Source of the DNA: Candidatus Woesearchaeota archaeon
Lineage (GTDB): Archaea; Nanobdellota; Nanobdellia; Woesearchaeales; SKGA01
Direction: 5' to 3'
NCBI GenBank assembly: GCA_046546105.1
Contig: JBKGYN010000001.1
Span: 52,441 to 116,440 of the forward strand
DNA: 64,000 nucleotides
Shown: one piece after another, positions 18,001 to 21,000 of the stretch
Layout: each line of letters opens with the position of its first letter
Numbering within the stretch: the first letter of the stretch is position 1
Made by a program: the position numbers

Positions 18001-21000
18001 GCTCACGTCAAGTCTGATAGCGTGGTTTTTGATGAGAATTACGAATATTCTGTCGAACGTCTCATGGAGATCGCTTCCAAGACTTCCCAATCGCTTTTTG
18101 CCTTCCAATGCCCTGATTGCTCGGTCATCCTTGAGAAACGCCCTGAAGCGAAAGTCACTTATCAGTGCAGTAATTGCGGTCACATTTCCAAACCCTCGGG
18201 CAATCCTGAGTTTATCCGCTGTAATGATTGCAACAATCCTGTCGAACCGACTGTAGAGCATAAAGGTTGTCCCGGGTGTGGTTCTTACAATCCTCCGAAG
18301 CGCATTCTCAATCTCTTGGCTGTTGTTGAAGTCGATACCATCCTCATCGCTTCCCGTCATCTTTACCGGATGCCTTATTCTCTTCACGAGAAGTCGCGGC
18401 TTGTTTCTGTACCTGTCGATCCTGACAGGATCATGTCTTTTGAAAAAGAGCAGGCCAAGCCTGAAAACATCCGTTTTGACATTCCCTTTCTTGATCGCTC
18501 GCGGGTTCCGCGCGGTGAGGCTCATCGTCTGATGGCGGAAGCTTTCGGAAAAGAGCTTCAGGAACTGGGTCACATCCATGCTGATCTCGAACGGGCGGCC
18601 AAGCCGGTTCGTAAATCTTTCGAAGCTCCTACTGATGCTATCGAGAAAGAATACTTTCCACCTTGCATCCATAAGATTCTTGCCGGTCTCGAGGATGGTC
18701 GAAAACGGGCGCTTTTCGTCCTTATCAACTTCCTGCGAACCTGCGGCTGGAATTACGAGCAGGTCGAGTCCCTTATTTATGAGTGGAATGAGAATAACGC
18801 CGAACCTCTTCGCGAGCAGTATCTCAAAAGCCAGCTCATCCCTGTTCTCAAAGGAAAGAAGATCGTCCCTCCCCCTAACTGCGATAATAAGGATTATTAT
18901 CTCGGTATTGGTATTTGCGAGCCGGATAATTTTTGTTCGCGCATCAAAAATCCTGCTGCATATGCTCGCAAGAAAAAAGAGCTCGCTACAAAATCTAGAA
19001 CGCGTTCTTCAAAGCGTTCTGGTAAGACCGCGAAATCAGCTTCAAAATCTGCCTTTACCCGAGCCTCCAGGAAAGCCTCTTCAAAAGAGCGTCATGTTCG
19101 TGATGATGAAAAAACTTGATTTGGGCTTTTTTCACTCTGAAAAACCTTTTTTACCCCTCATTTACCCTCTAAGCGTTTTTCTGTCTGATAGAGCGATTTT
19201 TACCGTATATAAAACAAAACATTTATAAAGCCCTTGGGGTTTCTCACCCTTGCTCATCAGAAGCGATGGGTGTTGGCCTGGAAAAGAATCATTTTTCAGT
19301 ACCGATGGATAAGCGGTTTCTTTTTCGTTGAGTCAACAATGTGTCGTTAATGGTGAGTTGTACGACGTGGTGTTTGAAGGCTGCGGTATCTGAGTGAAGC
19401 GCAATACCTTCACGGAAACGGTGTTCGTTTCCCGATGACACGGCGTGTAGCATCATTATAATACTGGAAAAAATCAGATCGTGTAACGAAAATGGCAAAA
19501 AAATTGAATCCTCGTCATGGGAGTATGCAATACTGGCCGCGTGTCCGAGCGAAACGCCAGTATCCGAGAATCCGGTCGCTACCGTCTTCAGACACTGCAT
19601 CCTTGCTTGGGTTTGCAGGATATAAGGCTGGTATGACTCAGGTGGTTGTTAGGGACAATGATAAGAATTCGATGACTAGAGGAGAGCTCGTTTCTCTTCC
19701 TGCAACCGTTATCGAATGTCCTCCGCTTCGCCTCGTATCTCTTCGTCTTTATAGGAATGCAGGTTATGGTCGTGAAGTTTCAAGGGAACTCTTTTTCAAG
19801 CCGGAGAAATTTCTCTCCCGGAAGTCCAAAAGTCCTGGATCTTATGCGAAGGCAGATGATTTGGACAATCTCGAGCTTGAAGGGGTCAAGGAAGCGACTG
19901 TCGTTGTCCACACACAGCCTTCAAAACTCTCTCTCAAGAAAAAGACTCCTGAAGTCTTCGAGTTCGGTCTCGGAGGCAGCCTCCAGGATAAGATCGCTTT
20001 TGTTAAGCAATGGATCGGCAAGGACATTCCCGCTTCTGAAGTTCTCAAAGAAGGAGTGTATACTGACTTGAGAGCTGTAACAAAAGGGAAAGGGACACAA
20101 GGTCCTGTTAAGCGTTTCGGCATCGGTCTTCGACCGAAAAAATCCGAGAAAACTATTCGCGGTCCTGGTTCCCTTGGTGGTTGGATTGCTCAAGGCCATT
20201 CTATGTATAGGATCTCTCACGCGGGTACGATGGGTTACCATCAGAGAATACAATACAATAATTATATCCTTTCGATCAGTGATGATCTGGAGAAAGTTAA
20301 TCCTGACGGGGGCTTTATCAACTACGGTCCTGTGAAGAACACCTATGTTCTTGTCAAAGGATCCGTTCCAGGACCTAAAAAGCGTCTTGTTGCGTTGACG
20401 AATCCGTTGCGTAAAGGAAAACAATTCGCAGCTCCGACCGTCGAATCGATCAACACACAATCAAAACAAGGTAATTAAGGCTACAGGTGCGCATGATGAA
20501 ACTTAAAGTGCTTGATAAGAATAACAAAGAGACCAAGACTGTCACTTTACCTTCGCAGTTTACAGAACCTGTCCGTCCCGATATTGTTAAACGGGCTGTG
20601 CTTGCACTCCGAGCATCTCGCAGGCAGAAATACGGAACAAGCCCTCGTGCAGGACTTCGCCACTCAGCTTACATCTCTAAACGGCGACATAAGTACAAGG
20701 GAACTTATGGGATTGGACGATCAAGAACACCGAGCAAGGTCATGAACCGAAGCGGTATCCGGTTCTTCTTCGTTGGAGCTAACGTCCCGCAGGCTGTTGG
20801 TGGTCGAAGGGCTCACCCTCCGAAAGCGAACAAGAACTGGGAAGTGAAGATTAACCGCAAGGAACGACGCAAAGCGATCAGGTCGGCCCTTTCTGCAACA
20901 GTGCTTGCAGATTCCGTCAAGACCCGTGGTCACAGGGTTCCTTCCGCTTATCCGTTTGTCCTGGATTCATCCTTTGAATCCATGGAGAAGACAAAGGACC

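What the first reader, a model, noticed from the sequence alone, without database searches (positions are those of the whole stretch)
19222..19300. Conserved leader element shared by two r-protein promoters (rpl3 operon and rpl34e)
Upstream of rpl3 (19241-19263) and of rpl34e (34371-34394) the same element, TTCTCA(C/T)C(C/T)TTTGC(T/C)CATCAGAAG, sits 11-12 bp downstream of an ACATTTATAAA TATA box. That puts it over the predicted transcription start. Each is followed ~15-35 bp later by CTGGAAAAG. Both genes then have unusually long leaders for this genome (~235 and ~105 nt). This looks like a dedicated operator or structured 5' leader for ribosomal-protein expression (autoregulation or growth-rate control).
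Basis: seen in the sequence. Interest (0 to 1): 0.5.

Follow-up and report, generated by a model that had tools for sequence, protein, structure and literature searches.

The report
Promoter plus conserved rpl3 leader RNA
The repeated motif is mostly ordinary promoter sequence plus a hairpin at the very start of two ribosomal-protein mRNAs. The stretch just after it, upstream of rpl3 only, is the core of a long structured leader RNA kept across a whole group of DPANN archaea and absent from Rfam, which probably lets a ribosomal protein limit expression of its own operon.

Summary
TTCTCAYCYTT(T)GCYCATCAGAAG occurs only at 19241-19263 and 34371-34394, each after ACATTTATAAA. It is not one element.

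- **First half:** this is the pyrimidine tract that most promoters of this Woesearchaeota-like genome carry between the TATA box and the start site.
- **Second half:** this is the first 12 nt of the predicted transcripts (start sites G19252 and G34383). It forms a 5'-terminal hairpin. In relatives the hairpin is kept by compensatory changes, but its sequence is not.
- **CTGGAAAAG upstream of rpl3:** this belongs to an invariant hairpin (GCCUGRAAAG...CAGUAC, 19275-19303). That hairpin is the core of a 130-300 nt leader found upstream of rpl3 in 37 of 38 distinct relatives with L3 at least 45% identical, and nowhere else in about 0.95 Mb. Rfam 15 has no match.
- **CTGGAAAAG upstream of rpl34e:** it does not fit the core model, is absent from all rpl34e relatives, and is within chance.

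The best reading is a strong promoter, a 5' hairpin and a new clade-specific rpl3-operon leader. The leader is probably a feedback site for an operon-encoded protein; uL4 is suggested by analogy only. The 11/12 identity of the two transcript starts in this genome remains unexplained.

The parts
19214..19229 (+). rpl3-operon promoter: A-rich BRE-like stretch and TATA box TTTATAAA (19222-19229)
   Evidence: Exact ACATTTATAAA. The same AAC[AC]TTTATAAA sits upstream of rpl3 in nearly all relatives.
19238..19251 (+). Promoter-proximal pyrimidine tract GGTTTCTCACCCTT, at about -14 to -1.
   Evidence: The same kind of tract (TTCTYC core) lies +9..+22 after the TATA box at 10-12 of 15 candidate promoters, most of them not r-protein genes. 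Mean pyrimidine content is 74% against 50% background.
19252..19252 (+). Predicted transcription start of the rpl3 operon (G, 23 nt after the TATA box)
   Evidence: Inferred. Leaderless genes of the window have their ATG 21-27 nt after the TATA end. A purine at +23/+24 followed by CUC is kept in 9 of 10 close relatives; L089 has C at +23.
19252..19271 (+). hp1: 5'-terminal hairpin GCUCAUC-AGAAGC-GAUGGGU.
   Evidence: MFE -8.0 kcal/mol, z -2.9. Compensatory changes at 4 pairs (3 in the stem proper) across 10 rpl3 leaders; 1/500 shuffles reach the observed score.
19275..19303 (+). Core hairpin of the rpl3 leader: GG-C-CUGGAAAA / GAAUCA / UUUUUCAG-UA-CC. It contains CTGGAAAAG at 19278-19286.
   Evidence: GCCUG...UUYCAGUAC is invariant in 18 type-A leaders. 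Model R1 scores 38 bits, E 4e-10, and this is the only significant hit in the window. There is one hit per rpl3 leader in 20 loci and none elsewhere.
19302..19320 (+). hp3 (CCGAUGGAUAAGCGG) followed by the conserved GGUUUC. GGUUU (19315-19319) may pair with the core loop GAAUC (19286-19290) as a pseudoknot.
   Evidence: G(G/U)UUUCU or GUUCU is kept in essentially all leaders. The loop varies (AAUC, AAACC, AAGCC, AAGUC) but stays complementary to GGUUU. This was read from the sequences and varies on one side only, so it is tentative.
19321..19491 (+). Rest of the 240-nt rpl3 leader: a helix near 19332-19373, hairpin UGAAGG...CCUUCA (19375-19412, includes AGGC 19378-19381), hairpin 19414-19432, an A-rich stretch and the GUGU SD-like site at 19481-19484
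   Evidence: RNAalifold on the window, L001 and L087; single-sequence folds. Support is weak because few close relatives were available.
19492..32019 (+). Tightly packed r-protein cluster from rpl3 to rpl15 served by this leader. The next TATA box is at 32030, before secY.
   Evidence: ORF map. The same gene order carries Pfam names in relatives.
34345..34360 (+). rpl34e promoter: BRE-like stretch and TATA box (34353-34360)
   Evidence: Exact ACATTTATAAA. Kept in L001, L094 and L080.
34369..34382 (+). Promoter-proximal pyrimidine tract GATTCTCATCTTTT
   Evidence: GATTCTC is kept in the rpl34e promoters of L001 and L094.
34383..34407 (+). Predicted start site (G34383) and 5'-terminal hairpin GCCCAUCAGAAGAUUCUGCUGGGGC of the rpl34e mRNA
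   Evidence: MFE -10.6 kcal/mol. Relatives have a hairpin at the same place with unrelated stems: L001 -8.5, L080 -4.4 kcal/mol, and L094 GCUCUUC/GGAGGGU.
34408..34509 (+). Rest of the 116-nt rpl34e leader: hairpin 34407-34425; hairpin 34429-34480 that holds CTGGAAAAG (34433-34441); SD GAGGU 34485-34489; hairpin over the start codon (34481-34509)
   Evidence: Fold from the predicted start: -42.2 kcal/mol, z -2.6. The CTGGAAAAG hairpin is absent from L001, L094, L080 and L082-85.

Best explanation
The 23-24 nt motif is a composite of three different things.

1. **Promoter tract (shown).** TTCTCAYCYTT is the pyrimidine-rich stretch that this genome's promoters carry between the TATA box and the start site.
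2. **5'-terminal hairpin (start site inferred, structure shown).** G|CYCAUCAGAAG is the first 12 nt of each transcript. It forms the 5' arm and loop of a stem-loop at the extreme 5' end of the rpl3-operon and rpl34e mRNAs. The hairpin is conserved as a structure, not as a sequence. Its inferred role is to protect the 5' end or tune translation of these abundant mRNAs.
3. **rpl3 leader core (shown).** Downstream, in rpl3 only, lies the invariant core hairpin GCCUGRAAAG-loop-UUUUCAGUAC of a 130-300 nt leader RNA. This leader is conserved upstream of rpl3 throughout a Woesearchaeota-like clade. It comes in two architectures that share GCCUGAAAAG, GUUCU and usually AGGCU.

**Inferred function.** The leader is a feedback site bound by a ribosomal protein encoded in the operon. 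uL4 is proposed by analogy with the bacterial S10 leader. Binding would lower translation or mRNA yield of the 24-gene cluster when free protein accumulates.

The CTGGAAAAG in the rpl34e leader is a lineage-specific coincidence.
For: - **Motif and promoter.** The motif is unique to the two sites. The pyrimidine tract is generic: 15 promoter candidates average 74% pyrimidines, and 10 reach at least 79% against 6% of background.
- **Start site.** Leaderless genes place the start about 21-27 nt after the TATA box. A purine at +23/24 followed by CYC is seen in rpl3 leaders of 9 of 10 relatives (L089 has C at +23) and rpl34e leaders of 3 relatives.
- **hp1.** There are compensatory A-U/G-C, U-A/C-G and C-G/A-U changes. 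The covariation score is 0.365 against 0.232, reached by 1/500 shuffles, and 79% of cells pair against about 30% when slid. Independent folds give z -2.7 to -3.7.
- **Core distribution.** The core 10-mer occurs 37 times upstream of rpl3 against 19 times elsewhere in 0.95 Mb on both strands. Model R1 hits only rpl3 leaders: 38 bits in the window and 26-47 bits in 20 loci. The core is present in 37/38 distinct upstream regions with L3 at least 45% identical, in 6/16 at 40-45%, and in 0/9 below 40%.
- **Type-B structure.** RNAalifold finds P1 plus an 8-bp P3 with compensatory changes in 6 pairs.
- **Not coding.** One-nucleotide indels in the two hairpin arms shift the frame between the window and L002, and L003 has a stop.
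- **Not catalogued.** There is no Rfam match at gathering or E<=10.
- **Context.** The leader lies before rpl3-rpl4-rpl23-rpl2... in all loci.
Against: - No transcript data exist; the start site is inferred from promoter geometry.
- The core hairpin's pairs hardly vary, so pairing there is not supported by covariation. The hp1 register was set by hand.
- The ligand is unknown. The core model finds nothing on the sense strand of E. coli 23S/5S rRNA, the only rRNA available.
- The long-range GCCU/AGGC helix seen in type B is not established for the window's own clade, where AGGC can sit in a local hairpin.
- The core lies more than 190 nt from the start codon in the window, so how binding would reach the ribosome-binding site is unclear.
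- The 11/12 identity of the two transcript starts within this genome alone is not explained by this account.
Confidence: 0.55

Rival explanations
1. Shared operator or tag. GCYCATCAGAAG at the transcript start, as DNA or as an RNA 5' end, is recognised by one trans-acting factor that co-regulates the rpl3 operon and rpl34e in this lineage.
For: There are 11/12 identical bases in the same register (+23..+34 after the TATA box). This pair is the only outlier among 1261 promoter pairs of the window. Both units encode r-proteins. In the window and L001, TATA-N20-24-RCYC occurs only at these two promoters.
Against: The 9-mer is lost in every orthologous promoter examined: L001 CATCAAGAC, L087 CATCAATAG, L089 CGTCAGCAA. 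The rpl34e promoters of L001, L094 and L080 are unrelated in sequence. In L001 the two starts share only 6/12. The third r-protein promoter in the window (rps2, 41018) lacks it. The same bases play different structural roles in the two hairpins. Only 74 kb of this genome could be inspected.
Confidence: 0.12
2. Nothing shared beyond the promoter class. The two sites are two strong promoters of one architecture, each with its own 5' hairpin. The extra identity is chance or a recent gene-conversion patch.
For: The generic tract and TATA box explain half of the motif. The shared 9-mer CTGGAAAAG is within chance at 9.2%. The loose pattern TATA-N20-24-RCYC[ATG]Y is expected about once per window by my estimate. 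The identity is confined to this genome.
Against: By my estimate, 11/12 in a fixed register has a chance of about 2e-6 per pair, or about 3e-3 over the window's pairs. Both members are r-protein units. The RCYC start plus a hairpin recurs at both units in relatives.
Confidence: 0.25
3. Transcription attenuator. The U5 runs in the rpl3 leader (19292-19296 and 19321-19325) act as archaeal oligo-U termination signals, and their use is modulated by the alternative pairings of GGAAAAGAA.
For: GGAAAAGAA (19280-19288) can pair either with UUUUUC (19292-19297) or with UUCUUUUUC (19318-19326). The same holds in L001 and L002 (read). The E. coli S10 leader works partly by L4-stimulated termination (my own knowledge). 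Internal termination tunes r-protein operons in Methanococcus (PMC10450193, abstract).
Against: The U runs are not conserved. Many type-A leaders have only U3-U4 in that arm, the second run is replaced by A-rich sequence in L003, L021, L022 and L091, and type B lacks both.
Confidence: 0.1
4. Processing or stability leader. The long 5' UTRs are substrates for endonucleolytic trimming that removes the 5' hairpin and activates translation, as described for methanogen r-protein operons. No protein feedback is involved.
For: In Methanolobus, r-protein operons are enriched in 5'-UTR processing sites next to uridines. Removing a 5'-terminal stem-loop raised translation about 3-fold (PMC5499594). Here both leaders start with a hairpin and are U-rich.
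Against: This does not explain the invariant, rpl3-specific GCCUGAAAAG/CAGUAC/GUUCU motifs kept over L3 divergence down to 45%. It is compatible with the best explanation rather than exclusive of it.
Confidence: 0.15

Closest known systems
E. coli S10-operon leader, autoregulated by L4 (bacterial r-protein leader)
   Same: It is a structured 5' leader in front of the operon that carries rplC-rplD-rplW-rplB-rpsS-rplV-rpsC... A single site would control a very long r-protein operon, and U-rich tracts follow hairpins.
   Different: There is no sequence or model similarity: no Rfam hit at any threshold. The archaeal operon starts with rpl3, not rpsJ. The ligand and mechanism are untested here. The E. 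coli leader is confined to Gammaproteobacteria (PMC3616713, title and abstract).
Candidate 'L4' r-leader of Archaeoglobi (Eckert & Weinberg 2020, PMC7247131)
   Same: It holds the same genomic position, upstream of rplC-rplD-rplW-rplB in an archaeon. Its ligand is also assigned only by analogy.
   Different: It is a different lineage and motif. Scanning the window's leader and a type-B leader against Rfam 15 at E<=10 gave no match to it. The present motif has far more members and two architectures.
5'-UTR processing of r-protein operons in Methanolobus psychrophilus (Qi et al. 2017, PMC5499594)
   Same: These are long 5' UTRs on archaeal r-protein operons. A 5'-terminal stem-loop affects translation.
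   Different: That work describes cleavage sites, not a conserved RNA motif. No processing data exist for this organism.
5'-terminal stabiliser hairpins of bacterial mRNAs, e.g. the ompA 5' UTR (my own knowledge)
   Same: A stem-loop with 0-1 unpaired nucleotides sits at the very 5' end of an abundant mRNA.
   Different: This is a different domain of life with different nucleases. Protection is inferred, not shown.
Archaeal core promoter (BRE, TATA box, promoter-proximal element, initiator)
   Same: There is an A-rich BRE, TTTATAAA centred about 26-27 nt before a purine start, and a conserved stretch between the TATA box and the start.
   Different: Here the proximal stretch is strongly pyrimidine-rich (TTCTYC). 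In Sulfolobus it is described as A/T-rich (my own knowledge).

Membership tests
Ribosomal-protein leader (autogenous r-leader), generic kind | Lies in the 5' UTR of an r-protein gene or operon, on the sense strand | tested here: met
   The core lies 190-215 nt before the rpl3 ATG in the window. It sits upstream of rpl3 in 37 loci and nowhere else.
Ribosomal-protein leader (autogenous r-leader), generic kind | Conserved secondary structure supported by covariation | tested here: inconclusive
   hp1 covaries (register set by hand) and so does P3 of type B. The core hairpin itself is invariant and therefore uninformative. No R-scape-type significance test was available.
Ribosomal-protein leader (autogenous r-leader), generic kind | Binds an r-protein encoded downstream and represses the operon | not testable with these tools
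   This needs binding and reporter assays.
Ribosomal-protein leader (autogenous r-leader), generic kind | Resembles the protein's rRNA site (common but not obligatory) | tested here: inconclusive
   Model R1 found no sense-strand match in E. coli 23S/5S. By eye there are short resemblances to 23S nt 303-314 (GUCUGGAAAGGC) and nt 396-430, but matches of that length are expected by chance. No archaeal rRNA was available.
Rfam L4-Archaeoglobi leader and all other Rfam 15 r-leaders | Match to the family covariance model | tested here: not met
   No hit at gathering score in the window. No r-leader hit at E<=10 on 19200-19500, 34340-34510 or a type-B leader.
K-turn / L7Ae-binding motif | Three-nucleotide bulge followed by tandem sheared G.A pairs between two helices | tested here: not met
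   Some distant type-A leaders have GA/GA flanking the core (L026, L027, L024). The bulge is in the wrong place, however, and the window (UUG/CCG flanks) has no tandem GA (read).
Box C/D sRNA | RUGAUGA and CUGA boxes brought together by terminal pairing, with C'/D' boxes and guide regions | tested here: not met
   AUGAUGA occurs in hp1 of L001 and L003 but not in the window (GAUGGGU). There is no Rfam C/D hit above noise.
Upstream ORF / leader peptide | Reading frame and peptide conserved among relatives | tested here: not met
   The window's 21-codon ORF starting at 19266 changes frame in L002 through 1-nt indels in the two hairpin arms. It is stopped after 4 codons in L003.
Archaeal BRE/TATA promoter | TATA box about 26-27 nt upstream of a purine start, with an A-rich BRE | tested here: met
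   The geometry is calibrated on leaderless genes of the same window. It is conserved in relatives. The start site itself was not measured.
   CATCAGAAG is not conserved in any of 9 rpl3 and 3 rpl34e orthologous promoters, whereas pairing is.

The most novel reading that the evidence does not exclude
Beyond the ancient rpl3 leader, the identical transcript start GCYCAUCAGAAG may be a lineage-specific 5'-end tag read by one trans-acting factor, either a protein or a small RNA. That factor would couple expression of the main r-protein operon and the separately transcribed rpl34e-rpl14e unit. This would be a small post-transcriptional regulon in a DPANN archaeon with a reduced genome.
Probability: 0.12. 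Interest if true: 0.65.

Novelty: new member of a known kind. Interest (0 to 1): 0.45.

Why it matters
Few cis-regulatory RNAs are known or even predicted in archaea. Eckert & Weinberg 2020 added only four r-protein leaders. My two full-text searches returned no paper describing one from DPANN archaea.

These organisms have tiny genomes and depend on hosts, so ribosome supply is a central economy for them. This leader sits in front of a 24-gene r-protein cluster and is conserved across a broad Woesearchaeota-like clade, with invariant unpaired nucleotides and two architectures. It offers a concrete RNA-protein pair to test. It also offers a way to ask how feedback control works where transcription is eukaryote-like and translation bacteria-like.

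The finding also shows that this genome's promoters carry a distinct pyrimidine tract. That tract is useful for predicting promoters and start sites in uncultured relatives.

Tried and rejected
1. **Core in the rpl34e leader.** A covariance model of the core, run with filters off, gave no hit at E<=10. Relatives lack CTGGAAAAG. Rejected.
2. **Known RNA families.** Rfam gave nothing at gathering score or at E<=10 on three regions; only miRNA- and CRISPR-like noise appeared. There are no tRNAs.
3. **uORF in the rpl3 leader.** The frame is not conserved. Rejected.
4. **K-turn, sarcin-ricin (AGUA/GAA) and box C/D readings of the core.** Their geometries do not fit the window's sequence.
5. **rRNA mimicry.**
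   - No rRNA is present in any fetched locus.
   - E. coli 23S/5S was fetched, and the core model finds nothing on the sense strand.
   - By eye I found three different short look-alikes in domain I, which shows how easily such matches arise. I also considered 5S loop E (AGUAC). None is claimed.
6. **Long-range helix GCCU/AGGC in the window.**
   - An objective best-partner search is not significant in single sequences.
   - In the closest relatives AGGC can pair locally instead. Left open.
   - In the L021/L091 subclade and in L048, the partner coincides with the Shine-Dalgarno site. However, CCU/AGG complementarity is trivial.
7. **Outer helix next to the core in distant type-A leaders.** It is present in 8 of 10 but individually weak.
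8. **Sequence-only alignment plus RNAalifold on 10 close leaders.** This recovers the core hairpin but not hp1, because the loops misalign.
9. **Extending the genome beyond the window.** Two look-ups failed because GTG starts translate as V. A third added 10 kb with no r-protein genes and no further copy of the motif.
10. **Literature.** A search for Woesearchaeota leaders found nothing.
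Full report
**Observation**

I read both regions directly. The degenerate motif TTCTCAYCYTT(N0-1)GCYCATCAGAAG matches twice in the window, at 19241-19263 and 34371-34394 on the + strand. None is expected by chance. ACATTTATAAA is exact at 19219 and 34350, and once more at 3011. CTGGAAAAG lies at 19278 and 34433.

**Organism and context**

- The L5 protein of the cluster finds its closest relatives in MAGs labelled Nanobdellota or Candidatus Woesearchaeota: L001 at 88%, L002 at 79%, L003 at 70%.
- The window's own L34e and L3 are on record as Candidatus Woesearchaeota archaeon, on a 132-kb contig.
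- rpl3 (19492) opens a tightly packed cluster that runs to rpl15 (32019). secY follows behind its own TATA box at 32030, then an EMC3/YidC-like membrane protein gene.
- rpl34e (34499) and a KOW-domain gene (34780; I take it to be rpl14e, though Pfam gave only the KOW motif) form a separate unit.
- The only other r-protein unit in the window is rps2.

**Where transcription starts**

Several genes of the window are leaderless. Their ATG lies 21-27 nt after the last base of a TATA box: 9691, 15092, 55151, 57859, 3876(-) and 46139(-). This calibrates the start at about +23 after the TATA box, that is G19252 and G34383, the G of TTG|CYC. In 9 of 10 close rpl3 relatives and in rpl34e relatives a purine followed by CUC or CCC sits at +23/+24; L089 has C at +23, and L080 has its G at +27. 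This is an inference from promoter geometry, not a measurement.

**First half of the motif is generic promoter**

The stretch +9..+22 after the TATA box is pyrimidine-rich with a TTCTYC core at most candidate promoters, whatever the gene: Hef helicase, aIF2-beta, secY, rps2, an M48 peptidase, a TrmB regulator and unknown ORFs. The mean pyrimidine content over 15 promoters is 74%. Ten of the 15 reach 79% or more, against 6% of random 14-mers. TTCTCAYCYTT is therefore not specific to r-protein genes.

**Second half is a 5'-terminal hairpin**

- From the predicted start, the rpl3 RNA begins GCUCAUC-AGAAGC-GAUGGGU (-8.0 kcal/mol, z -2.9).
- The rpl34e RNA begins GCCCAUCAGAAGAUUCUGCUGGGGC (-10.6 kcal/mol).
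- In rpl3 leaders of relatives the hairpin is kept while its sequence changes: CUCAUCA/UGAUGAG, CUCGUCA/UGACG, UCACAAU/AUUGUGA, UCGCAA/UUGCGA and UCAUAA/UUAUGA.
- Counted on arms that I put in register by hand, four pairs (three in the stem proper) show changes on both sides (11 cells). The covariation score is 0.365 against 0.232 for shuffles, reached by 1 of 500. Pairing is 79%, against about 30% for slid registers. Independent single-sequence folds agree.
- rpl34e leaders of L001, L094 and L080 also start with a hairpin, with unrelated stems. More distant ones (57-60% L34e identity) have a short leader of roughly 25 nt without it.
- CATCAGAAG itself is kept nowhere else.

This pattern speaks for an RNA-level role and against a DNA operator.

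**The real conserved element: an rpl3 leader RNA**

I fetched loci around L3 from metagenomes and further assemblies. They show a promoter followed by a long leader whose invariant core is GCCUGAAAAG.

- **Distribution.** The core is present in 37 of 38 distinct upstream regions where L3 is at least 45% identical, in 6 of 16 at 40-45%, and in 0 of 9 below 40% (corrected by eye for the GCCUGAAAAU/C variants).
- **Specificity.** The 10-mer occurs 37 times within 400 nt upstream of rpl3, and 19 times elsewhere in 0.95 Mb on both strands, mostly in coding sequence.
- **Model search.** A covariance model of the type-A core (GCCUG-hairpin-CAGUAC, 18 sequences) gives one significant hit in the window, 19268-19308 (38 bits, E 4e-10). 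It gives one hit per rpl3 leader in 20 loci and nothing else. The rpl34e leader is not hit even at E<=10 with filters off.
- **Two architectures.**
  - Type A includes the window. It has the hairpin CUGAAAA/UUUUCAG flanked by G...C with unpaired C and UA, followed by a small hairpin and G(G)UUUCU.
  - Type B lacks the 3' arm but keeps GAAAAG as one side of an internal loop, between an invariant helix GGCCU/AGGCU and an 8-bp helix with compensatory changes in six pairs.
  - L045 and L047 are intermediate.
- **Limits of the structural evidence.** The core hairpin's own pairs are almost invariant, so they say nothing either way.
- **Possible pseudoknot.** The core loop may pair with the conserved GGUUU. 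The same pairing is a local hairpin in type B. The variation is one-sided only, so I treat this as tentative.
- **Not a peptide.** One-nucleotide indels in both hairpin arms shift the frame between relatives.
- **Not catalogued.** Rfam 15 has no match.

**What the two leaders share, and what they do not**

CTGGAAAAG in the rpl34e leader sits in a hairpin that no relative has. A random segment of that length shares some 9-mer with the rpl3 leader 9.2% of the time. In contrast, the first 12 transcript bases are 11/12 identical in the same register, the sole outlier among 1261 promoter pairs. In L001 the same comparison gives 6/12. I could not decide between chance, a gene-conversion patch and a lineage-specific shared signal, because only 74 kb of this genome was accessible.

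**Mechanism**

Shown:
- the position of the leader;
- its conservation;
- its specificity to rpl3;
- partial covariation;
- its absence from known families.

Inferred:
- **hp1.** It protects the 5' end or tunes translation. In Methanolobus, removal of a 5'-terminal stem-loop from an r-protein 5' UTR raised translation about 3-fold (PMC5499594).
- **Core.** It is a binding site for an operon-encoded protein. uL4 is proposed by analogy with the E. coli S10 leader and with the Archaeoglobi candidate (PMC7247131).

rRNA mimicry could not be tested properly. No archaeal rRNA was available, and the model finds nothing on the sense strand of E. coli rRNA.

The oligo-U runs and alternative pairings in the window's clade leave room for attenuation, but they are not conserved across the family.

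**Verdict**

The shared element dissolves into a generic promoter tract plus a structurally conserved 5' hairpin. The valuable part is an uncatalogued, clade-wide rpl3-operon leader: a new member of the r-protein-leader kind.

Noticed in passing
window 41018-41260: rps2 also has a long leader, about 190-210 nt from the TATA box at 41018 to the ATG at 41241 or 41259. Some stretches (e.g. GGTGATAAAGGTGC) recur upstream of rps2 in L082 and L085. This may be a second r-protein leader. It lacks the GCYC hairpin start.
   Followed up: partly
window, promoters at 9656, 14501, 15058, 32030, 41018, 55118, 57830 (+) and 3907, 4865, 46169 (-): The genome has a genome-wide promoter signature: a pyrimidine tract with a TTCTYC core 9-22 nt after the TATA box, on the non-template strand. 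Many genes are leaderless, with the ATG 21-27 nt after the TATA box.
   Followed up: partly
window 2940-3175: The 290-nt gap between the TBP gene (2303-2866, -) and the TraB-like gene holds at least six TTTATAAA boxes on both strands. One of them is the third exact ACATTTATAAA (3011, +), which has a pyrimidine tract but no ORF downstream. This could mean multiple promoters, TBP autoregulation or a small non-coding transcript.
   Followed up: no
window 34485-34502; L001 17654-17671; L094 373-390: Between the SD GAGGU and the rpl34e start lies a 3-codon mini-ORF, AUG AUA YNA UGA. Its stop overlaps the main AUG (AUGA). It is kept in three genomes and sits inside a hairpin over the start codon.
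   Followed up: no
window 17461-19119: The gene upstream of the rpl3 promoter encodes a single protein with both primase small-subunit and large-subunit domains (a fused PriS-PriL). The same gene precedes rpl3 in most relatives.
   Followed up: no
L021 200-222, L091 2985-3003, L048 about 505-522: In some short-leader relatives, the sequence complementary to the core's GCCU (AAGGUU, AAAGGAG, AAGGCU) is itself the Shine-Dalgarno site, 7-13 nt before the rpl3 AUG. This would allow direct occlusion of the ribosome-binding site.
   Followed up: partly
window 33063-33115 (+): There is a weak match of the core model (10 bits, E about 1) inside secY coding sequence: GAGCCUGA...UCAGUAC. I take it as chance.
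   Followed up: yes
window 19100-19140: GTGATGATGA...CTGA at the 3' end of the primase gene looks like box C and box D. It is too short for a C/D sRNA, it is coding sequence, and it has no Rfam support.
   Followed up: partly
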